Under the pieces are notes generated by a model. The model did not search any database. It was not told where the DNA came from and saw nothing but the letters and a program-made list of their open reading frames with translations. DNA of 60,108 nucleotides, taken from positions 1 through 60,108 of IMG/VR virus record IMGVR_UViG_3300008262_000065; one strand, given 5' to 3'. The position numbers were made by a program, and so were the translations under genes. Source of the DNA: a virus. Lineage: Duplodnaviria > Caudoviricetes. This document shows positions 2,520 through 59,439 of this stretch, piece after piece (positions within the stretch are counted from its first letter, which is position 1; the number at the start of each line of letters is the position of its first letter).

Positions 2520-3997
2520 TGATGGACTACAAAGGGCTGAATGTCATTGACAGAAAGCCCGGCTATTCCAACCTTGAGATGTTAAACCATTGCAATACCT
2601 TGTATGAAATTGTCACCAAGACAAAGGACATCAAGGTATTGGATGGTAGAGCATACGTAATCAAACAAGTTCTTAAACATAAGACAGACAAAGAAACAAT
2701 GGATAGACTCAGCAATAGCATTGAGTACTACCAAAAACTACACGAAACAGAAATGAATAATCAAATCGAATTAAGAGACTATCAAAAAAGTATTGTCTCA
2801 AAGGCAGCAGAAATCATCAATGAGCACGGGTTCGTGTATCTTGCGATGGAAGTTAGAACGGGGAAGACTCTAACAAGCCTAAGCATCTGCGATAATATTC
2901 CAAACGTAGAGAATGTATTGTTCCTGACCAAGAAGAAAGCAATTGATTCTATCACTGCTGATTCAGATAAACTGTGCCCATCATACGTACTGTTCGTCAT
3001 GAACTATGAGAGCATACACAAGCTACCTAAAGTAAAGTGGGATGTAATCATATGTGATGAGGCACACGGCATGGGTGCATTCCCAAAGCCAAGTCTAAGG
3101 TCCATGCAGGTGAGAGATTTAGTTAGGGATAACAATAGCAGAGTGATACTGCTATCGGGTACCCCAACTCCTGAGTCATACTCTCAAATGTACCATCAGG
3201 TATATGGCATTCCGAACAACCCATTCAAAAAGTACTCAAACTTCTATCGGTTCGCTGATGACTACGTAAAGAAAACTCAGAAGAAAATCAATGGCGTATT
3301 GATTAATGACTACTCGAATGGTTTGCCTACCATAATGGATGCTATGGTGCACTGCACAATTAGATGGTCCCAAGTAGACTCAGGGTTCGTAGTCCAAACT
3401 TCAGAGGAAGTATTGCGTGTGGATTTGGAAGAATCAACTTATAAGTTAATTTCTAAACTCAAAAAAGATTTGGTGGTTGAGGGTAAGAGTGAGACTATCT
3501 TGGGTGATACTCCCGTGAAACTCATGAGCAAACTGCACCAATTGTATAGTGGTACCATAAAGTTTGAGAGTGGGAAATCAATGGTGATAGACTTGAGCAA
3601 AGCCAAGTTCATCAAGGAACGATTCAAGTATCAGAAGATTGGCATCTTCTACAAGTTCAAAGAAGAACTCACTGCACTTCAGGAAGTCTTTGGTAATAAG
3701 CTAACAACTGAACTCAGTGTCTTTGAAGACACCGACAAACACATAGCGTTACAGATTGTATCCGGAAGAGAAGGCATCTCGCTGAAGAAGGCTGACTGCC
3801 TCGTGTACTATAACATTGACTTCAGTGCCACAAGCTATTGGCAGAGCAGGGATAGAATGACTACCAAGGATAGACTTGAGAATAAAATCTATTGGATATT
3901 CTCTAATGGTGGTATTGAGGACATGGTATACAAAGCCGTGTCCAAGAAAAAAGACTATACCCTATCTCATTTCAAAAGAGATTTGCTAATATTGTAA
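2519..3997 (+). CDS. SF2 (SNF2/DEAH-like) helicase
   Basis: LRDYQ Q-motif, EVRTGKT, DEAH, LSGTP, GREGISL, QSRDR. Confidence 0.85.
   Translation: MMDYKGLNVIDRKPGYSNLEMLNHCNTLYEIVTKTKDIKVLDGRAYVIKQVLKHKTDKETMDRLSNSIEYYQKLHETEMNNQIELRDYQKSIVSKAAEIINEHGFVYLAMEVRTGKTLTSLSICDNIPNVENVLFLTKKKAIDSITADSDKLCPSYVLFVMNYESIHKLPKVKWDVIICDEAHGMGAFPKPSLRSMQVRDLVRDNNSRVILLSGTPTPESYSQMYHQVYGIPNNPFKKYSNFYRFADDYVKKTQKKINGVLINDYSNGLPTIMDAMVHCTIRWSQVDSGFVVQTSEEVLRVDLEESTYKLISKLKKDLVVEGKSETILGDTPVKLMSKLHQLYSGTIKFESGKSMVIDLSKAKFIKERFKYQKIGIFYKFKEELTALQEVFGNKLTTELSVFEDTDKHIALQIVSGREGISLKKADCLVYYNIDFSATSYWQSRDRMTTKDRLENKIYWIFSNGGIEDMVYKAVSKKKDYTLSHFKRDLLIL
3717..3732. repeat. 16-bp palindrome copy 1 (in helicase CDS)
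   Basis: GTGTCTTTGAAGACAC, read as SVFEDT. Confidence 0.95.
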
Positions 3998-4012
3998 ACG
4001 GTTCTTGAACAT

Positions 4013-4252
4013 ATGACTGAGCAGCAAATACAATCTAAGAAAATCAAAGAACTTGAGAGCCAAGGATACTACGTTATCAAGCTTACTAAGACCAATAAGA
4101 ATGGGGTACCTGATTTGATAGCCATACCAAAAGAATCTGATGTTATTTTTGTAGAAGTAAAGACACCTAATGGAAGGTTGTCTGCCCTTCAGAAGTATAG
4201 AATAAAAGAGATTGAAAACCATGGGATTAAAGTTGATGTTTTTAGAGGGTGA
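4013..4252 (+). CDS. VRR-NUC domain nuclease
   Basis: EQQIQ..GVPDL..FVEVK..GRLSALQ. Confidence 0.85.
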   Translation: MTEQQIQSKKIKELESQGYYVIKLTKTNKNGVPDLIAIPKESDVIFVEVKTPNGRLSALQKYRIKEIENHGIKVDVFRG

Positions 4253-4553
4253 CAATGTTAAATATGTATTAGAGCATTGGTTCAATAGCAGAATTGCAGC
4301 TATTGAAGAAAGCATTGCTGATGAAATCATTAGTCAGTTGCTCAAGAATATAGATAACTTTCCAAAGACAGAGTCCGGAAAGTTCGCAGTAATATCAGGT
4401 GTAGTAAAGCAGGAGGTTCCGTTCTTCTTTAAGATTGAGTATACCAATGCTGAAGAGGATGCATTAACATTTCTTGATATAGAGCAAATAGGATTGGAAG
4501 AGTACTTAGATTCGATAGACAAAAACAAATACATAAAAAGCGAAGTCACATAG
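4212..4553 (+). CDS. Hypothetical protein
   Basis: ORF in tightly packed operon; start uncertain. Confidence 0.55.
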   Translation: MKTMGLKLMFLEGDNVKYVLEHWFNSRIAAIEESIADEIISQLLKNIDNFPKTESGKFAVISGVVKQEVPFFFKIEYTNAEEDALTFLDIEQIGLEEYLDSIDKNKYIKSEVT

Positions 4554-4562
4554 TTTATCCAA

Positions 4563-4823
4563 TTGGCTAACAAAAAACATAACGCCCATCAGTTGGTTCT
4601 GAATTTCGAGATAGTACACATAAGTATATCCGAGTCAGAGTCAAGAACACGTGAACAAAAACGTGCAAGGAACATAGTCATATACACCAACCAAATACAC
4701 AGATGCATTGATGGCATCTATGAGCATCTTGTTGACCGAGAGTATCAAGACTTTAAGGATGAAGTTGAGTCGGCAATTGAGTACCTTGAATATCTGAGAG
4801 ACCATGGCGACAAAACATTTTGA
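4563..4823 (+). CDS. Hypothetical protein
   Basis: TTG-start ORF in operon. Confidence 0.55.
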   Translation: MANKKHNAHQLVLNFEIVHISISESESRTREQKRARNIVIYTNQIHRCIDGIYEHLVDREYQDFKDEVESAIEYLEYLRDHGDKTF

Positions 4824-5226
4824 GACAGAGCAGGACCTGATACGTGAGAGAAAAGCAATCGAAAGATTTGTATCCATCTTCAAGGGAAGGTTCGAGAAGC
4901 TAAGTCCTGATGACATTGACTTCAAGATATTCGATAAGGATAACAATCTCATTGCTTACGTTGAGGTAAAGGGACGGCTAAAGAATATTAGCATGGCATA
5001 CCCATTACCCGTATCCGTTCAAAAGATAGCGAAGCTTTGGGCAAAGAGATTGAACCCAACAATCATATGGGCTTGTGACGATGGGATAATCTATGGTAAG
5101 CTAAAAGAATTAGAGGGCACCCTAAGATTAGGTGGAAGAAATCCGAGAGCAGGCTCTGCCAATGACATAGAGTTGATGGTATACTACGACAAACAGAAAC
5201 CTCTAAAGTATATCAGATATGTGTGA
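4804..5226 (+). CDS. PD-(D/E)XK-family nuclease
   Basis: E..(n)..DIDF..AYVEVKGR motif. Confidence 0.65.
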   Translation: MATKHFETEQDLIRERKAIERFVSIFKGRFEKLSPDDIDFKIFDKDNNLIAYVEVKGRLKNISMAYPLPVSVQKIAKLWAKRLNPTIIWACDDGIIYGKLKELEGTLRLGGRNPRAGSANDIELMVYYDKQKPLKYIRYV

Positions 5227-5256
5227 GTGTCTTCAAAGACACTCACTTTTATTTTT
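5223..5256. terminator. Probable terminator between convergent arms, built on palindrome copy 2 (5227-5242)
   Basis: GTGAGTGTCTTCAAAGACACTCAC followed by TTTTATTTTT, between the stop codons of the + and - arms. Confidence 0.75.
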
Positions 5257-11200: not shown

Positions 11201-14200
11201 TTTATACTGCTTTCTTAGAGATTCTATTTTTTTAGCTAAAGCAATATTCAAATAAGGCAGATTGAATATTACATCTTCTCCATCTTTTTTATAAGATATT
11301 TTACCCGAAGCAATATTAGATGCAGTAGTTACTACACGACTATTAGGAGCATGAGACTCTGAGAATATATCTTCAGCACTATAATCTTCTTGGTATCCAT
11401 TTATTGTTTTTACTGTAGGATTATTTTCCCCTGCAACAACATCTTCTTCTCCTGTAAGTTTAACACCAACTCCTTCTTTTTCTAAATCTGATATTATAGA
11501 TTCAGACTTAGCTTTTATCTCAGGAGAACGATACATTGCATCCTTAATCTTAAAGTCTTTGTTATCTCCCTTATTTTCTACGAATCCAAATTTCTTATAG
11601 AAATCAGTAAGCCTTTTAACTGACTGTCCACCAAAGTCTGTTGATGGTGTAAGAGTAATCTTTAAGCCATTAGCATCAGCATATTTTATTATCTCTTCCA
11701 TCACTTTAGTTCCAACACCTGTATTCCTCTTGTCTTCAGGAACTACAATTCTTGAAAGAGTAATGTCTCCTTTATCTAAGTTACCCGTAAGGTCTAACTG
11801 AACACCATACCTCTCTTCAAGCTGAGTAGAAAAATCAATAGGGTTTATTTTTTCTTCTGCTCTGAACTCAACCTTTCTATTGGATGCCTGAAGTATAGAC
11901 TCAAGGTCAGATACCTCTTGCTCAATCGCAGTACGTTCAGCTACCAAATTACTTACCTCATCTACCTGCTTCTTGTTCGCATTGTATACGTTGTTCTCAA
12001 TGTCAGATAGTGTGGCTCCCTCAGCAACCTTCTCAGCTAATGCAGTGATGACACCATTAGCTTTATCTTCCTCTAAGGTATCGAAGTTTGCAAGGTCCTC
12101 TTCTGTATAGTCAATACGCTGACTAATTGATTCAGTAATCTCATCGAGGCGTGTCTTTGAAGACACTAAATCCTCTTGTGCTTGGGCTACTTCTTCTTTA
12201 GTTTTTTCGGCAACGACTTGAGGTTCTGTTTTGGGTTTTCCTTCCTCCACCGTTTCGCTAATTCCGGTTTCTGACTGAACAGGAACCGCACTTGGGCTTT
12301 GCTTTTGAATGGCATCTTTTAATTTTTTATTATATATACTGAGTGCTTCTTTATCATTATCTATAGTTACACGAGCACGAAGAAGTCTGCGACTATTCAT
12401 GTTGTCTAACTCCTTCGCAAATTGTTCACGAGTCATAACCTTACCACCCATGATGATTTTAGATACACCTTGACGAGTACCTACAATATCATTAATGTCA
12501 ACTGCAATTGTTTCACCATCTCCTACTTTTGTTTTGCTCTCAGGAAGTAGTTTCTTAGTCTCAGATATTAAAGCAATCTCTTTATTGATATTGTTAATCT
12601 TGTCTTTATTTATTGTTTTCCGGGCTTCTGTTGAAGACAGTTCATTTCTTGCAGCCAACAAATTCATCACCCTCGCCTCAACCTTTTTACCATTACCAAC
12701 AAGACGGCTTGTTGTTCCAACAGATACAAGTTCACGTGCATCTCTACGTAAACCTACATTCTGCTGAATGCGTTGGTTAACAGAGGCATCAATCTTCCCA
12801 AGCTTCTGCATATTGTTAGCCCACTGAGATATTCTTTCATCGCTAACATTCTCACGGGCTACACGGTCTATACTTGTCAAGTCATAAGCCAATTCTTTTT
12901 TGGCTTGGTCTTGTGATTGAAGGAATAGATTCGCTGCCATGCTTGATACATTACTACCAAGACCGCCTAATGCTTCGAGTCCAATTTCTTTTGCATTTAT
13001 CTCTTGACCTGCTACCACTTGTGCAGTAAACTCACCAAATGCTTCTGCTGCCGGGTCATAAACAATCCTTTCCCCAACTTGTGTTGCAATTTTTACAGGA
13101 ACTGTAGCTAATTTACTTGTCGTAAATACCTTACCCGCAATACCACTTGTAAGATAATCAACTACTGCAATAGGTATACCTCTTTTTAAACCTAATTCAG
13201 ACCCTTCACTCCATACTGTGTCATCTAAAAGAGCAGCCTCTACTTGTTTTGGGTCTAAAATATTGTAGCCTTTTTCACGCATTGTGTCCATGATAGAGTT
13301 GGTATACTCTAATGCGAACTGCGTTACTGAAAGACCAATCTTCATACCTCTAACTCCACCTGCTATAGCACCACCTGTTACAGTTGCAGGGGCTAATGGT
13401 CCACCTGCTAATCCTGCAATAGCACCTGTTGCTGCACCTGCAGCACCCATAGTTGGTACTATTTTTATACCCATAGGTGCCATTTGAGCCAAAGTAGTAA
13501 CAACAAGTGTTGACAATGCTTCTGCAGGGTCAGAGAAGAAAGTTTTTGAGAACTCTCCATCACGAGCCAAATTGATTCTTGTCATTACTCGTGATTGACC
13601 GCCTGAAGCATCCATGAGATTCTCAGTAATTATTCTTGCTACCTCTTGTCTATCACTTATATTCTTTACATCCTTTAACCCTAATGTCAATAATGCTATT
13701 TGCTCTGCTGCTTGACCATTATCTATAGCATTTCCTACAGATGAAATAAACCCGGCTAAGTTTTCCTCATAATCACCATTGCCTTCTTTGTTCCACTTTG
13801 CATCGTAGTATGTCTTAGACAATTCATATTTATCAGCAGCAGATTGTTTAGCTGCTTTTACTTTTACTAATTGAGCAGTAAGACTTTTGATATTCTCAGC
13901 ATCTTGTGGTGTCTTAGGAACTATAGTACTTATTTTCTCAATAGGCACATTGTATAGTTCCATTGCAGTTTGATTTAAAGAATCATACTCTTGCTTTGCT
14001 ATAGAATTAATCTTTATGGCTTCTCCTGCAATCTCATTCTGACGCTTTGCAAGGACTTCATCAAATGCTTCACGTGTACTTTGAATAGGTCCATCTTCAA
14101 AACCCATGAACTCTACATCATATACCTCTTCAAGAAGAACATCTTTTTTATTTAGAACATCTTCTCTTTTTTTCTCAAGTTCATCTGTTGAATATTGATA

Positions 14201-18467: not shown

Positions 18468-18878
18468 TTAAAATACTTTAATCATTTCAGTTGTGTACTT
18501 ATCACCCTCGATATATCCAAGAGTCTTATATGTCTCAATAAGTCCTCTGTGCTTTATCAAAGCGTAACAATATTTATGCCCCAAGTTTTTTGCGATATTC
18601 GTTAGTGTCTCAATCAGCAAACCAATTGCCTGTTGGCGTTGTGGCTTCTTCCTGTAATCTTTATTTGACACTATCCAATCCACCCAAGCTACACCACTAT
18701 TGGTAGTATAGAGAAATCCTGCACATATTGGAGTAGTGTCTTCAAAGACACACAATCCACCTATGCCATCCGCAGGAAGGAAGTCTTTCTTTGGTGGCTC
18801 CCAACCCCAAGATTCCCACCATCCCACAAGGAAGTCGGAGTAATCGGTTTCTTTTAAAGGTTGAATATCTAATTCCAT
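18468..18878 (-). CDS. GNAT-fold protein between tail and ejection genes
   Basis: ICAGFLY..AWVDWIVSN..YKTLGY; position analogous to T7 gp13. Confidence 0.55.
   Translation of the reverse strand: MELDIQPLKETDYSDFLVGWWESWGWEPPKKDFLPADGIGGLCVFEDTTPICAGFLYTTNSGVAWVDWIVSNKDYRKKPQRQQAIGLLIETLTNIAKNLGHKYCYALIKHRGLIETYKTLGYIEGDKYTTEMIKVF
18736..18751. repeat. 16-bp palindrome copy 4 (in CDS)
   Basis: GTGTCTTCAAAGACAC, read as CVFEDT. Confidence 0.95.
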
Positions 18879-28784: not shown

Positions 28785-28816
28785 AAAATAGGGGAGTGTC
28801 TTTGAAGACACCCCCC
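28785..28816 (-). terminator. Terminator after major capsid gene, built on palindrome copy 5 (28796-28811)
   Basis: GGGG-A-GTGTCTTTGAAGACAC-C-CCCC with TATTTTT downstream on the - strand. Confidence 0.7.
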
Positions 28817-43625: not shown

Positions 43626-43979
43626 CTATTTTTTTTTATTAATGTTAGACACTCTGCTTCCCATGCCCACTCTCGACTTCTCAGCCTTCTTAGCTGCAAG
43701 CTTTGATGGACTCAACTCTGATTTCGTTACGGGTGTCTTTGAAGACACTCTCTTGGATGGACGACAATACTCATTGCTGCCACCACCACCACATGGTTTA
43801 CCTGTACGGGTATCAACCCACTTCTCATCCTGCCATCTCTTCAGTGATGTACCTGCCTCAGTCTTACGAACATTGCCCGAAGCCTTGCGACATTTAGCAA
43901 TAGCTTGTGACGCACGTGCCGATGGGAAAACATCGTACTGTGCTTTTACCTTTTTGTAGCAAGCGTCTTTGATAGCCAT
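43626..43979 (-). CDS. Small basic phage protein
   Basis: DACYKKVK..SLKRW..EKWVD..PCG..YCRPSKRVS. Confidence 0.7.
   Translation of the reverse strand: MAIKDACYKKVKAQYDVFPSARASQAIAKCRKASGNVRKTEAGTSLKRWQDEKWVDTRTGKPCGGGGSNEYCRPSKRVSSKTPVTKSELSPSKLAAKKAEKSRVGMGSRVSNINKKK
43733..43748. repeat. 16-bp palindrome copy 7 (in CDS)
   Basis: GTGTCTTTGAAGACAC, read as VSSKT. Confidence 0.95.
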
Positions 43980-47834: not shown

Positions 47835-47899
47835 AGAATTGTTTTTACAAAGTTACAAAAAAATATTAGATAAGTAGAGGTTTAGGGCTCTACTGCAAA

Positions 47900-48245
47900 A
47901 TACGCAGCGCACCCCCCGTGGGGAAGCCACCCCCTCGGTCAAGGGTGGGGGGTCTGTTTTCGCCTGCGCACCTGCAACTTTTTGGCTTTTTCCCGCAGCA
48001 CCCCCGCAGCACTGCCTGCCTGCCTTATGTGTATGGTATCGGACCTGCTGCCTGCTTACCTGCCTGCTGCCTATGGCTTAACTGCCTGCCGTCCGTCCGT
48101 CCGCACTGCCTGCCTGCATGGATGAATGAATAAGCAGCACCTTGCGCCTGCCTATGGTGTCCTTGAAGACACTATCTGTAGGGTATCAGAACACACAAGA
48201 GACAGAGAGACATCTCTTAGCCCTTTGCCCACTGCCTGCAATCTG
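47900..48245. repeat. GC-rich non-coding region with strand-biased CTGC/CTGCC repeats (possible genome terminus/packaging region)
   Basis: ctgcctgcctgcc, cctgctgcctgc, gtccgtccgtccg etc. at the divergence point of the two arms. Confidence 0.6.
48157..48172. repeat. 16-bp palindrome copy 8 (1 mismatch)
   Basis: GTGTCCTTGAAGACAC. Confidence 0.85.
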
Positions 48246-48354
48246 TAATAAAAGATAGTGCTTCGAGCAGCCCAAACAATGCAGGTACAACATAAGTTCA
48301 ACCCATGTACAAACAAGGCATGAAAAAAAAATTGAAATATTTTTGCCTTGGGTA

Positions 48355-48384
48355 TTGTATTGTACGAAAATTATACTATCTTCG
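48355..48384 (+). promoter_or_regulatory. Probable first early promoter
   Basis: TTG..TATCTTCG (one mismatch to TAnnTTTG) with an A-tract upstream. Confidence 0.55.
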
Positions 48385-48446
48385 TGTCGCCAATGAGGGA
48401 AACCGAGGCACTAAAAACTAACTAACTAACTGAAAATCAACACACT

Positions 48447-49109
48447 ATGAGTAATTTAATGCAAATCGAGCAGGCACTTCTAAGCCTACCACAAGTAAAA
48501 CAAGGTCTTTGCCTTACTGAAATCCGCAGCGCACTACGTGCTGAGACCAATGCACAGAAGCAGAAGTTCACCAAGACAATTGCGCTATCTGTATTGGTAT
48601 CCAAAGCCTATGCTTGGTTCCAATCTGAGGAAGGCAAGGCTATCTTCCGTGAAGAGGGGGTGACATGGACCGCAGAGGATTTCGCAAACAAAGTTTTTGG
48701 GTGGCAAAAAAGCTACTTCAGCAAGGTGAACAAAGCAGGCAAACTACCTGCAGAAACAATTGCCTTGTTCAACGCAAAGTGCGATGAGGCTGAGGCTGCA
48801 GGCGATAAGCCAAACAGAACTCTTGAGGGACTGCACAAGTGGGTGAAGGCAAGTGCCCAAGGTGAAACCGAAGGCAGCGGAAAAGGTGAGGGCGAAGGCG
48901 ATGGACAAGAGGAAGGCGAAGACACAACTGCAGCAGTGGAAGTGCAAGTGCCCACTATTTTGCCCTTTGCTTTCAAGGCAGCGGACCTTGGATTGGGCAA
49001 AAATGTGAGCATCAGAGTGCAACAAGACGGCACTTTGGTGAGCAGCAATACTGCCTATGAAATCAATATGGCGCTTGAGTTCTTGAAGGCAGCCATTGAG
49101 GCGAGGTAA
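48447..49109 (+). CDS. First early gene; putative HTH DNA-binding protein
   Basis: EGVTWTAEDFANKVFGWQKSYFSKVNKAGKLP resembles a ParB/Spo0J-type HTH; acidic linker. Confidence 0.5.
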   Translation: MSNLMQIEQALLSLPQVKQGLCLTEIRSALRAETNAQKQKFTKTIALSVLVSKAYAWFQSEEGKAIFREEGVTWTAEDFANKVFGWQKSYFSKVNKAGKLPAETIALFNAKCDEAEAAGDKPNRTLEGLHKWVKASAQGETEGSGKGEGEGDGQEEGEDTTAAVEVQVPTILPFAFKAADLGLGKNVSIRVQQDGTLVSSNTAYEINMALEFLKAAIEAR

Positions 49110-49121: not shown

Positions 49122-49137
49122 GTGTCTTTAAAGACAC
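49122..49137. repeat. 16-bp palindrome copy 9 (before ribozyme 1)
   Basis: GTGTCTTTAAAGACAC. Confidence 0.95.
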
Positions 49138-49142
49138 CTCTC

Positions 49143-49191
49143 GCGTCCAAGGGTGAGTGCCCTTGCTGATGAGTCCAAGAGGACGAAACGC
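49143..49191 (+). ncRNA. Type III hammerhead ribozyme 1
   Basis: GCGU-C | CAAGGG-UGAGUG-CCCUUG | CUGAUGA | GUCC-AAGA-GGAC | GAA-ACGC; predicted cut after GUC at 49147. Confidence 0.95.
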
Positions 49192-49221
49192 AAACAAAAA
49201 ACCAACAAAAACACCACAGAT

Positions 49222-50196
49222 ATGACAACATTCCAAGAATTAAAAGAAGGTCGCAAGTACGAAATTACGGGTGACTATGACCGCAGCGTAGTTCAAAGCT
49301 ACCACAGAAAGCCAAGTGCCCTCAAGCACAATGTCAGCAAGTTTGCTGCCGATGTAATGGGACTCAAAGCCATTGACCGCAGCAAGGCAATTTTGAGAGT
49401 GCAGGACGAGTTTATGAGCAAGTTTACCATTGGGTATGAGATTGAGAAAAACGCTTTCCATAGGGGTGCGGTACAAGAATACCCACTGCTGCAGGGGTTT
49501 GAACGTGACGGGTCATGTGGCTATGAGGCAGTGACAAACATCTTACCCCTACTGCCCGAAGGCAAGTGGCGCAACAAGGTGTACGAGATGTTTACGCAGG
49601 CTGAGAAAATTATTGACTCTCGCTATAGCCCTGCGGACCGCAGGTGCGGTGGTCATATCACCTTGACCTGCAAGGACCTATCAAGTGATGAGATGAGGGT
49701 AAAATTGAGAGCATATGCAGGCATCCTGCTTGCCTTGTACGAGAGTCGTATCTCGAATAGGTACTGCGGTCACAACTTGCGTATGCAGCCCGACAATGAG
49801 AATTGGTACAATGGACCGAATTGCTACGAGGGCAATGGCACAAGGTATCAGTTTGCACTTGAGAAGACCTTTGGCTATGGTCGTGAGGCACAAGGTGCGG
49901 TTGAGTTCCGTATCGTGAGCAAATTTGAGTCAGTGAAGCAGTGCTTTCGCAGGTATGAATTGTGCTACGAACTCATGGACACTGCGTTCAATAGCCCGAC
50001 AAGTTTTCCTTCCTTTCTGAAGCGAATCCGTCCGATAGTTCTTTCAATGTACGGCAACGATGCTGCAGCCTGCGACCTGCGTCTTGAGAAGGCAAAGCAC
50101 TATCAGCACTTCATCAACACGGGTAAGATACACGAGAGCATTGTATCGGTCCTTGACCCGCACAGAAACCATGGATGGCGACATATGCCCTTCTGA
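49222..50196 (+). CDS. Putative amidoligase (COOH-NH2 ligase, glutamate-cysteine ligase/GS fold)
   Basis: IGYEIE..RDGSC..YEAVT..CGGHI..VEFR; start reassigned to ATG 49222 after the ribozyme. Confidence 0.7.
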   Translation: MTTFQELKEGRKYEITGDYDRSVVQSYHRKPSALKHNVSKFAADVMGLKAIDRSKAILRVQDEFMSKFTIGYEIEKNAFHRGAVQEYPLLQGFERDGSCGYEAVTNILPLLPEGKWRNKVYEMFTQAEKIIDSRYSPADRRCGGHITLTCKDLSSDEMRVKLRAYAGILLALYESRISNRYCGHNLRMQPDNENWYNGPNCYEGNGTRYQFALEKTFGYGREAQGAVEFRIVSKFESVKQCFRRYELCYELMDTAFNSPTSFPSFLKRIRPIVLSMYGNDAAACDLRLEKAKHYQHFINTGKIHESIVSVLDPHRNHGWRHMPF

Positions 50197-50213: not shown

Positions 50214-50229
50214 GTGTCTTTGAAGACAC
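50214..50229. repeat. 16-bp palindrome copy 10 (before ribozyme 2)
   Basis: GTGTCTTTGAAGACAC. Confidence 0.95.
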
Positions 50230-50236
50230 TGCTCCC

Positions 50237-50287
50237 GTTGTCGGGGAATGCGAGTTCCTCCTGATGAGTTCAAAAGAACGAAACAAC
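50237..50287 (+). ncRNA. Type III hammerhead ribozyme 2
   Basis: GUUGU-C | GGGGAA-UGCGAG-UUCCUC | CUGAUGA | GUUC-AAAA-GAAC | GAA-ACAAC; predicted cut after 50242. Confidence 0.95.
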
Positions 50288-50314
50288 AAAACAACACACT
50301 AAAAAAAACAACAT

Positions 50315-50603: not shown

Positions 50604-50619
50604 GTGTCTTCAAAGACAC
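50604..50619. repeat. 16-bp palindrome copy 11 (before ribozyme 3)
   Basis: GTGTCTTCAAAGACAC. Confidence 0.95.
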
Positions 50620-50624
50620 TGCCC

Positions 50625-50675
50625 GTTGTAAGTGGATGTGAGTCCACTCTGACGAGTCCAAAAGGACGAAACAAC
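50625..50675 (+). ncRNA. Type III hammerhead ribozyme 3
   Basis: GUUGU-A | AGUGGA-UGUGAG-UCCACU | CUGACGA | GUCC-AAAA-GGAC | GAA-ACAAC; predicted cut after GUA at 50630. Confidence 0.95.
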
Positions 50676-50694
50676 AAACTAAAAAACAACATAT

Positions 50695-50976
50695 ATGACA
50701 CAACGTATTTCAAAACAAGTTAAAGCCATTGCTGATGCGCACATAGCTGCGAAAGCAAACGGCACATTCGACAACCCGCACGTGAGCACACGTGAGCAAG
50801 TAATTCAGGCACTGTTTGAGGGCAAGACCTTTGACGAGGTACTGCGTCAGGTAGAGACAAGGTTCTGCAGCATTACTACACTGCTACTGCAGGGCACATT
50901 TGACTACACGACTCAAGCCTACAAGAGAGATGTTTACAGAGGCTTCAAGACACTATTACAAGGGGGTGCAAGATGA
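50695..50976 (+). CDS. Hypothetical early protein
   Basis: ORF after ribozyme 3. Confidence 0.7.
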   Translation: MTQRISKQVKAIADAHIAAKANGTFDNPHVSTREQVIQALFEGKTFDEVLRQVETRFCSITTLLLQGTFDYTTQAYKRDVYRGFKTLLQGGAR

Positions 50977-51317: not shown

Positions 51318-51333
51318 GTGTCTTCAAAGACAC
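51318..51333. repeat. 16-bp palindrome copy 12 (before ribozyme 4)
   Basis: GTGTCTTCAAAGACAC. Confidence 0.95.
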
Positions 51334-51339
51334 TGCCCC

Positions 51340-51388
51340 ACGTACAAGAGTGAGTGCTCTTGCTGATGATTCCAAAAGGATGAAACGT
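51340..51388 (+). ncRNA. Type III hammerhead ribozyme 4 (variant stem II closing pair)
   Basis: ACGU-A | CAAGAG-UGAGUG-CUCUUG | CUGAUGA | U-UCC-AAAA-GGA-U | GAA-ACGU; predicted cut after 51344. Confidence 0.85.
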
Positions 51389-51409
51389 AAAACCAAAAAC
51401 AAAACAGAT

Positions 51410-53967: not shown

Positions 53968-53983
53968 GTGTCTTCAAAGACAC
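53968..53983. repeat. 16-bp palindrome copy 13 (between promoter and ATG)
   Basis: GTGTCTTCAAAGACAC. Confidence 0.95.
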
Positions 53984-54006: not shown

Positions 54007-55128
54007 ATGTGCATCATAATCGTAAAACAACGCAACATTGAGATACCATCAGAGTATCTAAAAAATTCATCACGCATCAACCCCCACGGGTTGGGTGTGG
54101 TATGGCTTGACACCTTTGAGATAAGCTATCACAAGTCAAGCGAGTGGTCAGTACTAAACACTGCCCGTCCGTACATTGCCCACTTCAGATACGCAACGGT
54201 AGGCAAGGTAGGTCCCGACAATACGCACCCATTCAGATGTGGTGCAAACAAGCATGAGTACCTGATGATGAACGGTACCATTCATGGTCTTGGCAACAAG
54301 GATGTATGCGATACAAAAGTATTGGCTGAGTCATTGGATTCTGTGCCACGCCACAAGTGGAAGGCTGAGTTGGAGAAGAACAGACTTGTTCGATTCGTAA
54401 CAATCAACACAAGGCTGCGTACCTTTCAGCTATACAACAGAGACTTATGGACATTCCGCAACGGGGTGTGGTATTCCAAGGACAACATCTTTCAGGACCA
54501 TGTGGTGGCAGTGTACGGCACACTGAAGAAGGGGCACGGCAACTACCACAGATACCTGACTGACTCAAAGTTTGTAGGGTCAGGCACAACCAAGGACAAG
54601 TACCCGCTTATCATACACGGCTTGCCTTATATGCTTGACAAGAAGGGCAAGGGGCACAACGTGAAGGTGGATGTATTCAAAGTGAATGACACGGTCCTTG
54701 GTAAGTTGGACCAACTTGAGGGTCACCCGAATTGGTATTGCCGAAAGCAAATCACCATCACGATGAAGAAGAAAGAGGTGACTTGTTGGTTGTACTTTGC
54801 CAAGGATTCAATGGCAGACGAGGGAGATGAGATGCACGAGTCATACGAGGTAGGCTACATACACCACCCATTTAAAAAGGAGACTACCATGAGAGACTTG
54901 TTCCTGCCTGCTGAGAAGCCCACGTATAAGCAGGTAAAGTTTGAGTCATTCGATGACCTATACTCAAACCTATCAGGCATTGAGACAGAGGATGATGAGC
55001 CTATCATTGACGAGATACCATACTGCACTTCATGCTACAAGGACCTTGCGAGTGACGGCTACGGGAACTACTGCTGCATAGGATGCAACGAGTGGTACAC
55101 GCAGGCAGAGGTAGACAACTTGTTATAG
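54007..55128 (+). CDS. Class II glutamine amidotransferase fused to gamma-glutamylcyclotransferase (AIG2-like), C-terminal Zn ribbon
   Basis: N-terminal MC, NPHGLG, HFRYAT, NTHPF; VAVYGTLKKG..N, LDQLEGHP; CTSC..CIGC. Confidence 0.85.
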   Translation: MCIIIVKQRNIEIPSEYLKNSSRINPHGLGVVWLDTFEISYHKSSEWSVLNTARPYIAHFRYATVGKVGPDNTHPFRCGANKHEYLMMNGTIHGLGNKDVCDTKVLAESLDSVPRHKWKAELEKNRLVRFVTINTRLRTFQLYNRDLWTFRNGVWYSKDNIFQDHVVAVYGTLKKGHGNYHRYLTDSKFVGSGTTKDKYPLIIHGLPYMLDKKGKGHNVKVDVFKVNDTVLGKLDQLEGHPNWYCRKQITITMKKKEVTCWLYFAKDSMADEGDEMHESYEVGYIHHPFKKETTMRDLFLPAEKPTYKQVKFESFDDLYSNLSGIETEDDEPIIDEIPYCTSCYKDLASDGYGNYCCIGCNEWYTQAEVDNLL

Positions 55129-55143
55129 TGTCTTTGAAGACAC
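55128..55143. repeat. 16-bp palindrome copy 14 (before tRNA-like element)
   Basis: GTGTCTTTGAAGACAC. Confidence 0.95.
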
Positions 55144-55144: not shown

Positions 55145-55188
55145 AGGTGAATGGTTTCAGGGGGGTTCGATTCCCCCCGCACCTGCCA
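55145..55188 (+). ncRNA. tRNA-like minihelix (partial acceptor stem + T-arm + G-CCA; no D or anticodon arm)
   Basis: AGGTG..GGGGG-TTCGATT-CCCCC-CGCACCT-G-CCA. Confidence 0.65.
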
Positions 55189-56454: not shown

Positions 56455-56463
56455 ATTAACACC

Positions 56464-57613: not shown

Positions 57614-57625
57614 TTTTAAACATTT

Positions 57626-57657
57626 CTTGGACATTAAATGTACTTGATGTATATTTG
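57626..57657 (+). promoter_or_regulatory. Bacteroidota promoter
   Basis: CTTG-N20-TATATTTG. Confidence 0.75.
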
Positions 57658-57706
57658 TACCTCGAATCAATTCAATAAAATCAAATGAAATCATACACAA
57701 AAACAA

Positions 57707-57722
57707 GTGTCTTCAAAGACAC
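57707..57722. repeat. 16-bp palindrome copy 15 (in leader of DnaA-IV-like gene)
   Basis: GTGTCTTCAAAGACAC. Confidence 0.95.
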
Positions 57723-57751
57723 CAAGTCAAACCAACAAAGCCAATGTTATC

Positions 57752-58054
57752 ATGAAGAAGGAAGTATTTAATCAGTACGCAGAGAGGATAGCATTGATGT
57801 TCGGTATCTCTAAGGAAGAGTTGTTCAGTAAGACCAAGCAGAGACACATTGCAGATGCAAGGCACTTGCTATACTATATGTGCAGCACAAGACCGATGGA
57901 GTTAATCTACATTCAGAACTTTCTTGGTGATGAAGGATACGTGACCATGCACCCGCCTATCATTCATGGTATTAAGAAGGTGACTCAGCGCCTGAAGGAT
58001 GACCGAGACTACAAAGCAATCGTTGACAAACTAAAACAATCAGTAACAATCTAA
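57752..58054 (+). CDS. Stand-alone DnaA domain IV (Bac_DnaA_C-like) HTH protein
   Basis: FGISKEELFSKTKQRHIADARHLLYYM..HPPIIHGIKKV; start reassigned to ATG 57752. Confidence 0.75.
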   Translation: MKKEVFNQYAERIALMFGISKEELFSKTKQRHIADARHLLYYMCSTRPMELIYIQNFLGDEGYVTMHPPIIHGIKKVTQRLKDDRDYKAIVDKLKQSVTI

Positions 58055-58065
58055 TCAAATCAAAT

Positions 58066-58689
58066 ATGTCAGAATCAAAATCAGTATTCCAAGTGTTGTC
58101 GGAAGTGGCAATCAAGGACAAAATTGAACGCAAAGGTAACACGGACTATCTATCATGGTCTTATGCATGGTCACTGCTGAAGAGCACGTATCCACACGCA
58201 CAACGCATAGTGTATGAGGACCCTGCTACGGGATGGAACTACTTCTCAGATGGTCGCAGTGCTTGGGTTAAGGTGGGTATAATGGTGCTTGGAGATGAGC
58301 ATATTGTTTACCTGCCAATCATGGACTTCAAGAACCAAGCTATCTCAATTGAGAAGGTAACTCAGGTTGATGTAAACAAAGCTATTCAGAGATGCACTAC
58401 CAAAGCTATTGCGATGCACGGTCTTGGTCTTCAGTTGTGGACGGGTGAGGACATTCCTGAAATGACAACTGCTGCCAACGCCCCTGCAGAGAAGAAGGCA
58501 GAGCAGGGTGATACCCTTATTGAACTCGTGAAGGGTGATGAGAATTGGGTGAAGGTCCTGAAGTATATCGAGACCAACAAGAATCTCGGTGCTGAGAAAA
58601 TAGGTAAGCAACTTATACGCAAGTACAAGATAAGTGCTAAGTTGAAGAAGGAAATCGTGGACCTCATTAACAAGCCTGACAATGAGTGA
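58066..58689 (+). CDS. Sak/Rad52-like single-strand annealing protein (DUF1071 type)
   Basis: YLSWSYAW..LPIMDFKNQAI..VNKAIQRCTTKAIAMHGLGLQLWTGED. Confidence 0.85.
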   Translation: MSESKSVFQVLSEVAIKDKIERKGNTDYLSWSYAWSLLKSTYPHAQRIVYEDPATGWNYFSDGRSAWVKVGIMVLGDEHIVYLPIMDFKNQAISIEKVTQVDVNKAIQRCTTKAIAMHGLGLQLWTGEDIPEMTTAANAPAEKKAEQGDTLIELVKGDENWVKVLKYIETNKNLGAEKIGKQLIRKYKISAKLKKEIVDLINKPDNE

Positions 58690-59416
58690 TATATTAGAAA
58701 TCCTAAAGAACGACCAAGAGTATTACAGAGGGGTAGGCAAGAACTACCTCTCTAACTCAGACATCGGAGTGCTGCTCAACAATCCTCAAGACTACGGCAA
58801 GTCAAGAGAAGACGACAAGGCATTGGCTGAAGGCAGACTATTCCATCAGCTATTGCTTGAGCCTGAGAAGGCAGTCAATGTCCCTCAAGTTGATGTGTCA
58901 ACACGCACAACCAAAGCATACAAGGAGTATCTTGATGAGCACAAGCTAACATTCTGTCTATTGACAAAAGAAGTTGATGAGATAACTGCACTGACTAAGA
59001 AGATGAGTGGCAACATTCAGTTCTATGAGGACATCTATCGTGATGGTAATCAGTATGAGGTACCAATGGTAGCTGAGATACATGGGCATCAGTGGAAAGG
59101 CAAAGCAGACATCGTGTGCAATGATATGCTAATTGACCTGAAGACCACATCAGACATCAACTCATTCAGATACTCAGCCAAGAAGTATAACTATGACTCT
59201 CAGTGCTACATCTATCAGAAGCTATTCAACAGACCATTGGTATTCTACGTGATTGATAAAGCGTCCGGACAACTTGGTATCTTCCGTCCATCAGAGAACT
59301 TTATCAAGAACGGAGAGTCAAAAGTGCTACGTGCTATAGAGGTATGGGACAAGTACTTCGGTCCCAATCCTACTGAGGACATTGAGAACCACTACATTGA
59401 TGAGACACTTGAGTAA
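58682..59416 (+). CDS. RecE/DUF3799-like PD-(D/E)XK exonuclease
   Basis: LSNSDI..GRLFHQLLLEP..KGKADI..IDLKTT..YDSQCYIY. Confidence 0.85.
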   Translation: MSDILEILKNDQEYYRGVGKNYLSNSDIGVLLNNPQDYGKSREDDKALAEGRLFHQLLLEPEKAVNVPQVDVSTRTTKAYKEYLDEHKLTFCLLTKEVDEITALTKKMSGNIQFYEDIYRDGNQYEVPMVAEIHGHQWKGKADIVCNDMLIDLKTTSDINSFRYSAKKYNYDSQCYIYQKLFNRPLVFYVIDKASGQLGIFRPSENFIKNGESKVLRAIEVWDKYFGPNPTEDIENHYIDETLE

Positions 59417-59423
59417 TCTCAGG

Positions 59424-59439
59424 GTGTCTTTAAAGACAC
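59424..59439. repeat. 16-bp palindrome copy 16
   Basis: GTGTCTTTAAAGACAC. Confidence 0.95.

What the first reader, a model, noticed from the sequence alone, without database searches (positions are those of the whole stretch)
3717..59439. Genome-wide 16-bp palindrome GTGTCTTYRAAGACAC, 16 copies, kept inside essential genes in different frames
Seen: copies start at 3717, 5227, 12151, 18736, 28796, 35900, 43733, 48157 (1 mismatch), 49122, 50214, 50604, 51318, 53968, 55128, 57707 and 59424. With 14 fixed positions even one chance copy in 60 kb is very unlikely. Five copies lie inside CDSs and are read as (S/C)VFEDT, VSSKT and CLQRH, i.e. in all three frames, so selection is on the nucleic acid and not the protein. 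Copies are ~6-10 kb apart along the late arm, dense in the early arm, and mark the convergence point (5227) and the capsid terminator (28796). Inference: site for a dimeric DNA-binding protein, either parS/matS-like for genome organisation, entry or packaging, or an operator at 53968 and 57707 just downstream of promoters. A recombination site is also possible.
Basis: partly seen in the sequence, partly recalled or inferred. Interest (0 to 1): 0.8.

Follow-up and report, generated by a model that had tools for sequence, protein, structure and literature searches.

The report
Phage palindrome paired with early protein
A 16-base palindrome repeated 16 times in this freshwater phage is most likely the recognition site of one of the phage's own early proteins, and many copies also form RNA hairpins at gene ends, several directly in front of self-cleaving ribozymes.

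Summary
GTGTCTTYRAAGACAC occurs 15 times exactly and once with one mismatch, against 0 expected, and five copies lie in coding sequence in all three phases.

1. Four copies sit 2-6 nt upstream of type III hammerhead ribozymes, one precedes a tRNA-like minihelix, and two are the cores of intrinsic terminators.
2. The motif is tied to an uncharacterised early protein, p220 (48447-49109). All 64 viral loci that encode a p220 homologue carry it.
3. Diverged p220 homologues come with different palindromes of the same geometry: GTACGGT..ACCGTAC, GTATGTT..AACATAC, GTGCGAT..ATCGCAC, GTGTACY..AGTACAC and GTCTCTT..AAGAGAC. Three relatives that lack p220 at the syntenic place have no recurrent palindrome.

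p220 is predicted to form a symmetric homodimer.

My best reading is a genome-wide operator set for a dimeric phage regulator, analogous to stoperators and to the Cluster O mycobacteriophage repeats. Intergenic copies double as RNA 3'-end hairpins. Whether p220 binds DNA or RNA is unresolved. A parS-like role is not supported.

The parts
3717..3732 (.). Palindrome copy inside the helicase gene (2519-3997, +), peptide SVFEDT
   Evidence: The same codon position carries the exact motif in G001, G004, G008 and G010, and G003's own palindrome in G003.
5227..5242 (.). Palindrome copy at the convergence point; core of a terminator-like hairpin GTGA-core-TCAC followed by a T run
12151..12166 (.). Palindrome copy inside the 3442-aa ORF (5249-15577, -), peptide VSSKT
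   Evidence: No orthologous stretch was found in relatives.
18736..18751 (.). Palindrome copy inside the 136-aa ORF (18468-18878, -), peptide CVFEDT; unique to this genome
   Evidence: All 21 aligned relatives read V(L/Y/F)DG(D/E) here, without the motif.
28796..28811 (.). Palindrome copy forming the tip of the capsid-gene terminator on the - strand (GGGGG-core-TCCCC followed by a T run)
   Evidence: The exact motif is at the same place in 24 of 80 capsid-related loci.
35900..35915 (.). Palindrome copy inside the terminase large subunit gene (33875-36163, -), peptide CLQRH
   Evidence: It is exact at the orthologous position in 6 of 33 aligned relatives, and 2 more have one mismatch.
43733..43748 (.). 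Palindrome copy inside the DUF5872 gene (43626-43979, -), peptide VSSKT
   Evidence: It is exact in G001 and G008. G009 and G005 keep VSSKT with other codons.
48157..48172 (.). One-mismatch copy in the divergent control region, 275 nt before the p220 start codon
   Evidence: A copy lies 150-450 nt before p220 in 43 non-identical loci.
48447..49109 (+). p220: first early gene, the candidate cognate binder. It has a helical N-domain with an invariant KVFGWQKS segment, an acidic Gly/Glu linker and a small C-terminal domain.
49122..49137 (.). Palindrome copy 12 nt after the p220 stop codon. The stem is extended by G-C and G-U pairs on the sense strand only.
49140..49194 (+). Type III hammerhead ribozyme-like element
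   Evidence: RF00008, 42.9 bits, E 1e-6, below the gathering score of 48.5.
49222..50196 (+). p324: early protein that co-occurs with p220 in motif-bearing genomes; possibly an amidoligase
   Evidence: The window protein has no Pfam hit. The G006 homologue hits Amidoligase_2 at E 0.006, below the cut-off.
50214..50229 (.). Palindrome copy 17 nt after the p324 stop codon; stem extended by 9 pairs on the sense strand
50235..50289 (+). Type III hammerhead ribozyme-like element
   Evidence: RF00008, 41.1 bits.
50604..50619 (.). Palindrome copy 13 nt after a stop codon
50623..50677 (+). Type III hammerhead ribozyme-like element (core CUGACGA)
   Evidence: RF00008, 41.2 bits.
51318..51333 (.). Palindrome copy 33 nt after a stop codon; stem extended by 6 pairs on the sense strand
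51338..51392 (+). Fourth hammerhead-like element (CUGAUGA-UUCC-AAAA-GGAU-GAAAC), found by eye and by folding only
   Evidence: cmscan did not report it in the window. A copy with the same core in G008 scored 34.4 bits.
53968..53983 (.). Palindrome copy in the leader of p373, 23 nt before its start codon and about 25 nt after a TTTG..TAccTTTG box
   Evidence: A copy lies 19-36 nt before the p373 homologue in G001, G004, G008 and G010.
54007..55128 (+). p373: Ntn/GATase-II-like N-terminal region plus a GGACT domain; flanked on both sides by copies
55128..55143 (.). Palindrome copy overlapping the last base of the p373 stop codon
55145..55188 (+). tRNA-like minihelix (5-bp acceptor-like stem, GGGGGG-UUCGAUU-CCCCCC T-arm, GCCA) directly after the copy
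   Evidence: There is a partial tmRNA-model hit at 55150-55178, E 0.0019. ARAGORN finds no tRNA.
57707..57722 (.). Palindrome copy in the leader of the DnaA-C-like HTH gene (ATG at 57752), about 45 nt after a TATATTTG box
59424..59439 (.). Palindrome copy between the stop codon of 58682-59416 and the next ATG at 59442
47835..48446 (.). Divergent control region: a conserved GGGGTGGGGGT box, a T-rich box, CTGCCTGC-type repeats, then the palindrome. The same order is seen in G001, G004, G008 and G010.

Best explanation
The palindrome is the recognition site of a phage-encoded dimeric protein, most probably p220, the product of the first early gene (48447-49109).

Inferred mechanism: a p220 homodimer reads two 5-bp half-sites (GTGTC/GACAC) set 11 bp apart on double-stranded DNA, across a TTYRAA spacer. 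It occupies about 16 sites:
- one in the control region upstream of its own gene;
- one at nearly every junction of the early operon and in two 5' leaders;
- a few at fixed places in late genes.
This would make it a genome-wide operator set that shuts down or blocks transcription, like stoperators.

Because the site is a palindrome, it has settled where hairpins are cheap or useful. On the transcript, the intergenic copies are the tips of longer hairpins that end or protect upstream messages. These are the cores of two intrinsic terminators, the hairpins left at the 3' end after cleavage by four adjacent hammerheads, and the hairpin before one tRNA-like element.

Shown: the copies, their contexts, the hammerhead matches, and the co-occurrence and co-variation with p220.
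Inferred: that p220 is the binder, that it binds DNA rather than RNA, and the regulatory outcome.
For: 1. The copies are real and under nucleotide-level selection.

2. Tight linkage to p220.
- 64 of 64 viral-contig loci with a p220 homologue hold the motif at up to 1 mismatch, and 61 hold an exact copy. In total there are 245 exact and 65 one-mismatch copies in 670 kb.
- Of 75 window ORFs compared by tblastn, p220 is the only one that hits all four motif-bearing genomes and none of G002, G003, G005, G007 and G009.
- Profile searches then find diverged p220 in G003, G006, G020 and G024, and no hit (E > 1) in G002, G005 and G007, which do hold the syntenic early region.

3. Co-variation. Each diverged p220 comes with its own recurrent 16-bp palindrome of the same geometry:
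- G006: GTACGGT-YR-ACCGTAC, 7 copies
- L181: GTATGTT..AACATAC, 5 copies
- L182: GTGCGAT-GC-ATCGCAC, 8 copies
- G024: GTGTACY-CG-AGTACAC, 4 copies
- G020: GTCTCYT..ARGAGAC, 6 copies
- G003: GTCTC-N6-GAGAC, 11-12 copies
- L144: GTCTCTT..AAGAGAC
The segment invariant in the motif-bearing family (KVFGWQKS) differs in each of these. Genomes without p220 have no dominant 5-6-5 palindrome.

4. Half-sites vary independently.
- L144 has two hybrid sites that pair as G.G or C.C.
- L162 has A.A and T.T at position 7/10.
- C.A combinations at position 6/11 occur on the sense strand.

5. The centre dinucleotide was left free in the search, yet it is a pyrimidine-purine step in 220 of 220 exact copies.

6. 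A copy lies upstream of the p220 gene in every lineage examined.

7. Homodimer model: score 0.62, best of 3 controls 0.00. The mark was reached by 20 of 30 proteins solved as pairs of one chain and by 1 of 23 solved as single chains. The runs agree in at least 94% of contacts and the partner's pLDDT is at least 80. The interface uses residues 3-72 and 170-220 and leaves helices 76-98 mostly free.

8. RNA side.
- Stem extensions with G-U pairs occur on the sense strand only.
- 8 of 10 RF00008 matches in five genomes directly follow a copy.
- The terminator scan calls 5227 and 28796.
Against: - p220 has no recognisable DNA-binding family. It has no Pfam hit, no PDB sequence hit and no PDB fold hit better than E 0.4. 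The helix-turn-helix is my reading of the model.
- Linkage and co-variation are confounded by shared descent, so another gene of the same module could be the determinant. Three p220 variants that differ in the conserved segment (GWGKS, GWKNS, GVQNS) keep the standard motif.
- Several features point to the RNA (or single-stranded) level. In 141 early intergenic copies the sense-strand centre is CA 96 against TG 22. Coding copies (16 against 15) and control-region copies (10 against 11) show no such bias.
- Position 6/11 variants give a G-U wobble on the sense strand 25 times against C.A 11 times. In G020 and G024 all asymmetric copies wobble on the sense strand.
- Intergenic copies sit a median of 15 nt after a stop codon.
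- A dsDNA operator gives no reason for lying next to hammerheads.
- In G006 the three variant copies mismatch on the sense strand, which fits neither model neatly.
- 8 of 30 capsid-related records hold the motif without p220, but all are fragments that stop before the early region.
Confidence: 0.5

Rival explanations
1. The functional form is the RNA hairpin. p220, or another factor, recognises the hairpin on transcripts and controls 3'-end formation, message stability, ribozyme cleavage, termination or antitermination, or translation. Models for this are T4 RegA, N/boxB or coat-protein operators. The DNA palindrome would be only the template.
For: - Intergenic copies lie a median of 15 nt after stop codons, and 98 of 141 are within 35 nt.
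- Two copies lie in 5' leaders.
- Copies lie directly 5' of 8 of 10 RF00008 hammerheads and of a tRNA-like element.
- Stem extensions with G-U pairs are on the sense strand only.
- The sense-strand centre is biased, CA 96 against TG 22, in intergenic copies only.
- Sense-strand wobble outnumbers mismatch 25 to 11.
- One hammerhead without the motif has another GC hairpin at the same place.
- A language-model look-alike search listed T4 RegA-family clusters at 0.90, which is a weak lead only.
Against: - Copies in coding sequence occur in both orientations with no loop bias.
- The control-region copy lies about 170 nt upstream of the nearest promoter-like box (the box consensus is recalled).
- Hybrid sites with G.G, C.C, A.A, T.T or C.A pairs would weaken the hairpin but keep both half-sites.
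- A perfectly symmetric 7+2+7 site and a symmetric predicted dimer fit duplex DNA better.
- A structure-only constraint gives no reason for all copies in a genome to switch G-C to C-G together.
Confidence: 0.25
2. There is no dedicated binder. The copies are ordinary structural hairpins (terminators and processing or stability elements) kept alike within a genome by gene conversion or recombination between copies, as in repeated promoter/stem-loop cassettes (PeSL). The coding copies are by-products.
For: - Many copies are terminator or pre-ribozyme hairpins.
- In relatives, homology breaks lie within 9-16 nt of a copy in 2 of the 9 locus pairs compared, and near copies in others.
- Copy 18736 looks like a patch of the helicase copy.
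- The phage encodes a Sak annealing protein and PDDEXK nucleases.
Against: - 15 of 16 copies are identical over 14 fixed positions, while the stem extensions and flanks differ freely.
- Coding copies are conserved at orthologous positions across genomes whose proteins are 58-80% identical.
- The centre is always YR.
- The strict link to presence of p220, and a different palindrome with each p220 type, is not expected from conversion alone.
Confidence: 0.08
3. The sites are parS/matS-like: they load a protein that organises, segregates, condenses or packages the genome.
For: - A 16-bp palindrome that also occurs inside genes.
- Even spacing along the late arm of this genome (CV 0.23, P about 0.002, post hoc).
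- One p220 subfamily ends in an acidic D-F-D-x-x-x-P-F-like tail. Its likeness to the SSB tip is recalled, not tested.
Against: - p220 has no ParB or other known domain.
- No ParA-like gene was seen among the ORFs scanned, though not every ORF was scanned.
- The complete genome G004 has no copy in 35 kb of late genes, and spacing in G001 is 7-16 kb.
- Copies are concentrated in the early operon in all genomes.
- Related genomes with direct terminal repeats suggest end-specific packaging.
Confidence: 0.07
4. The sites are primarily recombination sites that shuffle early-gene cassettes between phages of the same 'brand'.
For: - Copies flank the most variable part of the genome. ORFs from 50.3 to 53.1 kb have no homologue in 10 relatives, apart from one hit for 50695-50976.
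- Some homology breakpoints lie next to copies.
- Recombination between dyad repeats was reported for Cluster O mycobacteriophages (PMC4351075, section 8 read).
Against: - The breakpoint evidence is anecdotal, from 9 pairs chosen by hand and no statistics.
- Copies inside conserved late genes, and the copy upstream of p220, are not at cassette borders.
- No recombinase tracks the motif.
Confidence: 0.07

Closest known systems
Stoperators of Cluster A mycobacteriophages (L5, Bxb1) and their immunity repressors
   Same: - Up to about 30 copies of one short site are spread over a phage genome, in short intergenic regions and in genes.
- They are bound by one phage protein that also regulates its own region.
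- Site motifs and repressors diverge together between sub-lineages.
Sources: PMC9283540 (abstract seen in a search listing); PMC6550527 (passages read).
   Different: - Stoperators are asymmetric, bound by a monomer, and mostly in one orientation relative to transcription. Here the site is a perfect palindrome and the candidate binder is a predicted dimer.
- p220 showed no family hit in any library searched, so no link to those repressors was found.
- No integrase was found among the ORFs scanned, and no prophage copy in one scan of 185,579 genomes, so this is not obviously an immunity system.
- Here many sites are also RNA hairpins next to ribozymes.
17-bp dyad-symmetric repeat TGTTCGGNNNCCGAACA of Cluster O mycobacteriophages
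   Same: - More than 30 invariant 7-bp inverted repeats per genome, in intergenic and coding places, enriched in one transcribed arm.
- The authors proposed them as sites of a dimeric regulator of unknown role.
- Indels lie between the repeats.
Source: PMC4351075 (abstract and section 8 read).
   Different: - The sequence, spacing (7+3+7) and host phylum differ.
- No binder was singled out there. Here one protein family tracks the site and changes with it.
- No link to ribozymes or terminators was reported there.
Hammerhead ribozymes flanking genes in prophages
   Same: Several hammerheads lie between genes of one transcription unit, which implies that long phage transcripts are cut into gene-length messages. 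Source: PMC3088659 (passages read).
   Different: This concerns the neighbours of the palindrome, not the palindrome itself. In the passages I read, no conserved sequence-specific hairpin directly 5' of the ribozyme is mentioned.
KorB/OB operators of plasmid RK2 and ParB/parS (recalled, not looked up)
   Same: Palindromic 13-16-bp sites are bound by an HTH dimer. About a dozen are spread over a 60-kb replicon, some far from promoters or inside genes.
   Different: p220 has no ParB/KorB domain in Pfam. Spreading, CTP binding and a partition partner cannot be tested here.
PeSL promoter/stem-loop cassettes of T4-type phages
   Same: Repeated intergenic stem-loop motifs border variable early ORFs. 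Sources: PMC2839356 and PMC4122927 (titles and abstract starts only).
   Different: PeSLs are composite promoter-terminator motifs that are not found inside conserved genes, and they have no proposed cognate protein.

Membership tests
Type III hammerhead ribozyme (Rfam RF00008), for the elements next to four copies | Score at or above the family's gathering score (48.5 bits) | tested here: not met
   The window elements score 42.9, 41.2 and 41.1 bits (E about 1e-6 in 12.6 kb), and the fourth is not reported. One relative's copy reaches 48.7 bits (G010).
Type III hammerhead ribozyme (Rfam RF00008) | Conserved core CUGAUGA ... GAAA with three helices, helix III open, and a cleavage triplet GUC or GUA | tested here: met
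   The alignments to the model cover positions 1-54 of 54. RNAfold gives helices I, II and III for all four elements. One core reads CUGACGA.
Type III hammerhead ribozyme (Rfam RF00008) | Self-cleavage | not testable with these tools
   No RNA holder was listed for this phage.
Intrinsic (factor-independent) terminator, for copies 5227 and 28796 | GC-containing stem-loop followed directly by a T run, downstream of a gene end | tested here: met
   The scan calls 5223-5246 (+) and 28816-28791 (-). These are consensus matches only.
ParB/parS partition system | Binder with a ParB N-terminal (CTPase) domain and an HTH domain | tested here: not met
   No Pfam family at E <= 0.01 for p220 and no PDB sequence or fold match.
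ParB/parS partition system | A partner ParA ATPase gene | tested here: inconclusive
   None was found among about 40 ORFs scanned against Pfam or PHROGs. The small ORFs were not all scanned.
ParB/parS partition system | A 16-bp palindromic site, also found inside genes | tested here: met
Stoperator/repressor system (Cluster A mycobacteriophages) | Many copies of one site genome-wide, in intergenic and coding places | tested here: met
Stoperator/repressor system (Cluster A mycobacteriophages) | An asymmetric site in one orientation relative to transcription | tested here: not met
   The site is a palindrome. The centre is CA, TG or TA, and coding copies are 16 CA against 15 TG.
Stoperator/repressor system (Cluster A mycobacteriophages) | The site motif diverges together with the binder | tested here: met
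   Eight pairings of p220 type and palindrome. Binding itself was not tested.
Stoperator/repressor system (Cluster A mycobacteriophages) | A temperate phage whose repressor gives immunity | tested here: inconclusive
   No integrase was found among the scanned ORFs. No p220 homologue turned up in one scan of genome contigs. The host is unknown.
CRISPR-repeat mimic (solitary repeat unit, Racr) | A conserved unit of full repeat length (about 28-37 nt) | tested here: not met
   Only 16 (at most 18) positions are conserved and the flanks vary. I took this idea from an abstract (PMC10651486).

The most novel reading that the evidence does not exclude
p220 and its palindrome form a fast-diversifying, sequence-'branded' control system of uncultured freshwater phages that works on both nucleic acids. 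The same dimer would bind the DNA site as a roadblock or operator, and the nascent RNA hairpin to gate termination and hammerhead-mediated message processing. The brand, of which at least eight variants are seen, would let a phage control its own genome while ignoring or sabotaging co-infecting relatives. That would be a lytic-phage counterpart of heteroimmunity.
Probability: 0.15. Interest if true: 0.85.

Novelty: new variant of a known kind. Interest (0 to 1): 0.6.

Why it matters
Genome-wide dyad repeats in phages have been noted before without a binder or a role (Cluster O). Stoperators are the only well-studied case of a phage protein with dozens of sites. Here a large environmental phage family offers a natural specificity series: one uncharacterised protein family and at least eight matching palindromes. 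A handful of gel-shift experiments could assign the binder and start to read its recognition code.

The fixed pairing of the site with hammerhead ribozymes, a tRNA-like element and terminators also gives a concrete system for asking how phages of hosts without Shine-Dalgarno-led translation cut and stabilise polycistronic early messages.

If the binder proves to act on RNA, it would be a new family of hairpin-specific RNA-binding proteins with ready-made orthogonal pairs.

Tried and rejected
- Rfam at gathering thresholds gave 0 matches in the whole window. The hammerheads appeared only with E-value thresholds.
- ARAGORN found 0 tRNA or tmRNA genes.
- megablast of 20 kb against 50,697 phage records found one distant record only.
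- p220 function could not be assigned:
  - Pfam, no hit
  - PHROGs, only unknown-function families at E >= 0.004
  - PDB by sequence, nothing below E 0.16
  - PDB by fold, whole protein and N-domain, nothing below E 0.4
  - BFVD, only its own uncharacterised relatives
  - ESM Atlas, unnamed viral clusters and a 0.90 RegA-family lead that I do not rely on
- N4-like hairpin promoters read by a giant virion RNA polymerase: considered because of the 3442-aa ORF, and dropped. That ORF matches only unknown-function PHROGs, and the copies sit at gene ends and in both arms.
- Type IIS restriction sites (GAAGAC within the motif): dropped, because the TA-centred copies lack that site.
- Solitary half-sites GTGTCTT are not enriched: 10 seen against 8.2 expected in the window.
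- Sequencing runs: no RNA holder listed.
- p220-B relatives: viral contigs returned only G006 itself. The single metagenome scan gave two further loci.
- Genome-contig scan with the p220 alignment: no relative.
- The search of earlier findings returned nothing.
- No paper holds any of the three 16-mers. I searched the full text of the held library for all three forms.
- G009, G011 and G012 lack p220 and palindromes but also lack the GroEL gene next to the early region. I do not count them as informative absences.

Full report
**Observation.** The pattern GTGTCTTYRAAGACAC occurs 15 times exactly. A 16th copy at 48157 has one mismatch, and 100 shuffles gave no match. The window is a whole virus record rated 99% complete, and the pattern read backwards gives 0. 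TG and CA centres are reverse complements, so the centre only marks orientation, and TA is symmetric.

Five copies lie in long ORFs in phases 1, 0, 1, 2 and 0, read as SVFEDT, VSSKT, CVFEDT, CLQRH and VSSKT. The ORFs are a helicase, a 3442-aa protein, a small conserved protein, the terminase large subunit and a DUF5872 protein.

**What surrounds the copies.** The early arm runs rightwards from about 48.4 kb and continues across the record end to 5.2 kb. The late arm runs leftwards from 47.8 to 5.2 kb.

- Four early intergenic copies (49122, 50214, 50604, 51318) lie 12-33 nt after a stop codon. Each is the tip of a longer hairpin whose extra pairs include G-U pairs, so they exist on the sense strand only.
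- Each is followed within 2-6 nt by a type III hammerhead-like element. Three match RF00008 at 41-43 bits (E about 1e-6, below the gathering score of 48.5). The fourth I identified by eye and by folding.
- Copy 55128 overlaps the stop codon of the 373-aa gene and is followed by a tRNA-like minihelix with a GGGGGG-UUCGAUU-CCCCCC arm and GCCA. ARAGORN calls no tRNA.
- Copies 5227 and 28796 are the cores of terminator-like hairpins with T runs.
- Copies 53968 and 57707 lie between promoter-like boxes (TTTG..TAccTTTG; TATATTTG) and start codons. That this is the Bacteroidota-type promoter consensus is my recollection.
- Copy 48157 lies in the divergent control region.

**Relatives.** The capsid protein has more than 600 relatives in IMG/VR, of which the best 80 loci were kept.

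- In 24 of the 80, the exact motif sits 18-47 nt after the capsid gene as the tip of the terminator. The others have unrelated hairpins or near variants, among them the doubly compensated GTCTCTTCAAAGAGAC.
- Whole-record counts at up to 1 mismatch gave a match in 12 of 30 records, with 8-12 copies in the four longest (G001, G004, G008, G010). There were none in G002, G003, G005, G006, G007 and G009.
- The helicase copy is exact at the same codons in G001, G004, G008 and G010.
- The terminase copy is exact in 6 of 33 aligned relatives, and 2 more have one mismatch.
- At the DUF5872 site, G009 and G005 keep VSSKT with other codons.
- The 18736 copy is unique to the window (all).

So selection acts on the nucleotides.

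**Other 'brands'.** Genomes without the motif are not all without palindromes.

- G003 has 11-12 copies of GTCTC-N6-GAGAC.
- G006 has 7 copies of (AGA)GTACGGT-YR-ACCGTAC(TCT).
- At the helicase position G003 carries its own palindrome (AGTCTCTTCTCGGAGACT, peptide SLFSET), and G006 has a different 6+4+6 palindrome there.

**The linked protein.** I compared 75 window ORFs with ten genomes by tblastn.

- The 220-aa product of the first early gene (p220, 48447-49109) is the only one that hits all four motif genomes and none of G002, G003, G005, G007 and G009.
- The 324-aa and 373-aa early proteins also hit the motif-free G005.
- Profiles of p220 relatives then detect diverged homologues in G006 (E 1e-29) and G003 (E 5e-21), and nothing (E > 1) in G002, G005, G007 and G009. 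G002, G005 and G007 do hold the syntenic early region.
- The same profile run on 30 records adds G020 and G024.
- All 64 IMG/VR loci that encode a p220 homologue (36-65% identical) hold the motif. 61 hold it exactly, with 245 exact and 65 one-mismatch copies in 670 kb.
- A copy lies 150-450 nt upstream of p220 in 43 non-identical loci, and one lies just after its stop in 34.
- Eight of the 30 records hold the motif without p220, but they are fragments. Six lack the neighbouring GroEL gene, and in the other two GroEL lies at the very start of the contig.
- G009, G011 and G012 likewise lack that region and are uninformative.

**Co-variation.** Each diverged p220 type has its own recurrent palindrome of the same 16-bp geometry:

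| Record | p220 segment | Palindrome |
|---|---|---|
| Window family | KVFGWQKS | GTGTCTT..AAGACAC |
| G006 | AYGLSKQQ | GTACGGT..ACCGTAC |
| L181 | not read | GTATGTT..AACATAC, 5 copies in 2.7 kb |
| L182 | not read | GTGCGAT-GC-ATCGCAC, 8 copies |
| G024 | FGIQKS | GTGTACY-CG-AGTACAC |
| G020 | FGWEKA | GTCTCYT..ARGAGAC |
| G003 | YGFSKS | GTCTC-N6-GAGAC |
| L144 | YGWNKS | GTCTCTT..AAGAGAC |

Only GT at positions 1-2 and its complement AC at 15-16 are shared by all the variants, and the inner arm positions change.

A uniform scan for 5-6-5 palindromes gives a dominant family of 4-16 copies in every p220-bearing genome. In the others it finds only AT-rich low-complexity families.

Two caveats apply. 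Descent links all of these features. Three p220 variants with changes in the conserved segment keep the standard motif.

**DNA or RNA?**

For duplex DNA:
- The site is perfectly symmetric, and the two arm cores are 11 bp apart.
- The centre was left free in the search, yet it is a pyrimidine-purine step in 220 of 220 exact copies.
- Half-sites vary independently. L144 has two hybrids that would pair G.G or C.C, L162 has A.A and T.T at 7/10, and C.A occurs on the sense strand.
- Coding copies (CA 16, TG 15) and control-region copies (10, 11) show no orientation bias.
- The control-region copy is upstream of the nearest promoter-like box.
- p220 is predicted to form a symmetric homodimer. The score is 0.62 and the best of 3 controls is 0.00. 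The mark was reached by 20 of 30 proteins solved as pairs of one chain and by 1 of 23 solved as single chains. The runs agree in at least 94% of contacts and the pLDDT is at least 80. Helices 76-98, which hold the invariant segment, are mostly outside the interface.

For RNA:
- The 141 early intergenic copies sit a median of 15 nt after a stop codon.
- They show CA 96 against TG 22 on the sense strand.
- Position 6/11 variants wobble on the sense strand 25 times and mismatch 11 times.
- In G020 and G024 all asymmetric copies wobble on the sense strand.
- Stem extensions are sense-specific.
- 8 of 10 RF00008 matches in five genomes directly follow a copy. One of the two exceptions has another GC hairpin there.
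- After the 373-aa gene, the window has the tRNA-like element where G004 has a hammerhead.

These counts are not phylogenetically independent. I read them as dual use. All copies share a duplex-level constraint, and the transcribed intergenic ones have an added hairpin-level constraint.

**What p220 is.** I cannot say. It has no Pfam, PDB-sequence or PDB-fold relative, only uncharacterised viral relatives and a weak language-model lead to T4 RegA. No homologue was found in one scan of 185,579 prokaryote genomes, and no integrase among the ORFs scanned. The phage comes from lake and freshwater samples.

**Comparison with what is known.**
- Several hammerheads flanking genes in prophages have been described, with message processing proposed (PMC3088659, passages read).
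- Stoperators of Cluster A mycobacteriophages are the closest working model. They have up to about 30 sites, and motifs diverge with the repressor (PMC6550527, passages; PMC9283540, abstract). But they are asymmetric and oriented.
- The 17-bp dyad repeat of Cluster O mycobacteriophages is the closest look-alike. It has more than 30 invariant copies, both coding and intergenic, and its binder and role are unknown (PMC4351075, abstract and section 8).
- None of the three 16-mers occurs in the held literature. Supplements could not be searched.

**Verdict.** The parS reading is not supported. The RNA side of the element (hammerheads, tRNA-like element, terminators) is new information and keeps an RNA-level mechanism alive. 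Late-arm spacing is even in this genome (P about 0.002, post hoc), but this is not conserved.

Noticed in passing
window 49140-49194, 50235-50289, 50623-50677, 51338-51392 (+): An array of four type III hammerhead-like ribozymes, one in each of four successive intergenic spaces of the early operon. Each is followed by an A-rich leader and a start codon. RF00008 matches occur in only 5 of the 23 related records searched, and all 5 carry the window's motif.
   Followed up: partly
window 55145-55188 (+): A tRNA-like 'top half' (acceptor-like stem, T-arm with UUCGAUU loop, GCCA) in an mRNA spacer. It could be a processing signal for RNase P or a CCA-adding enzyme. It is neither a tRNA nor a tmRNA by ARAGORN.
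   Followed up: partly
window 47900-48250: A GC-rich control region with a conserved GGGGTGGGGGT box, a TTTTTGGCTTTTT box and many CTGCCTGC-type repeats. The same layout, with different repeat units, is seen in G001, G004, G008, G010, G003 and G005. It is possibly the replication origin.
   Followed up: partly
window 49222-50196 and 54007-55128 (+): Two early enzymes travel together in relatives. One is a possible amidoligase (only the G006 homologue touches Pfam Amidoligase_2, at E 0.006). The other is a protein that starts Met-Cys, with a GATase-II-like N-terminal part, a GGACT domain and a Cys-rich tail. I recall such trios from the literature as predicted peptide-ligase systems.
   Followed up: partly
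alignment A2 (p220-B subfamily; G006 25186-25953 and relatives): This subfamily carries an extra Lys-rich region and ends in an acidic D-F-D-x-x-A-P-F-type tail. It reminds me of the C-terminal tip of bacterial SSB (recalled). The window's own p220 lacks this tail.
   Followed up: no
G001 about 6506-6530 and 7925-7949; G004 about 48984-49007; G010 about 39468: A second hammerhead-core-like element (CTGAYGA-GGGTT..ACCC-GAAAC) lies between early genes of relatives. RF00008 did not match it, and the palindrome does not precede it.
   Followed up: no
window 5249-15577 (-): A single 3442-aa ORF among the late genes, matching only unknown-function PHROGs over residues 1207-1700.
   Followed up: no
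window 45671-47290 (-): A phage-encoded GroEL-like chaperonin (PHROG 5725, E 1e-130), conserved in most relatives.
   Followed up: no
window 3986-4330 (-): A minus-strand ORF with homologues in six relatives overlaps the 3' end of the plus-strand helicase gene by 12 nt. The early arm is therefore not purely co-directional here.
   Followed up: no
L145/L151 about 8485-8700; L127/L134 about 8296-8676: Between close relatives, homology breaks and resumes within 9-16 nt of a palindrome copy, as if cassettes were exchanged at the copies. I looked at only 9 pairs chosen by hand.
   Followed up: partly
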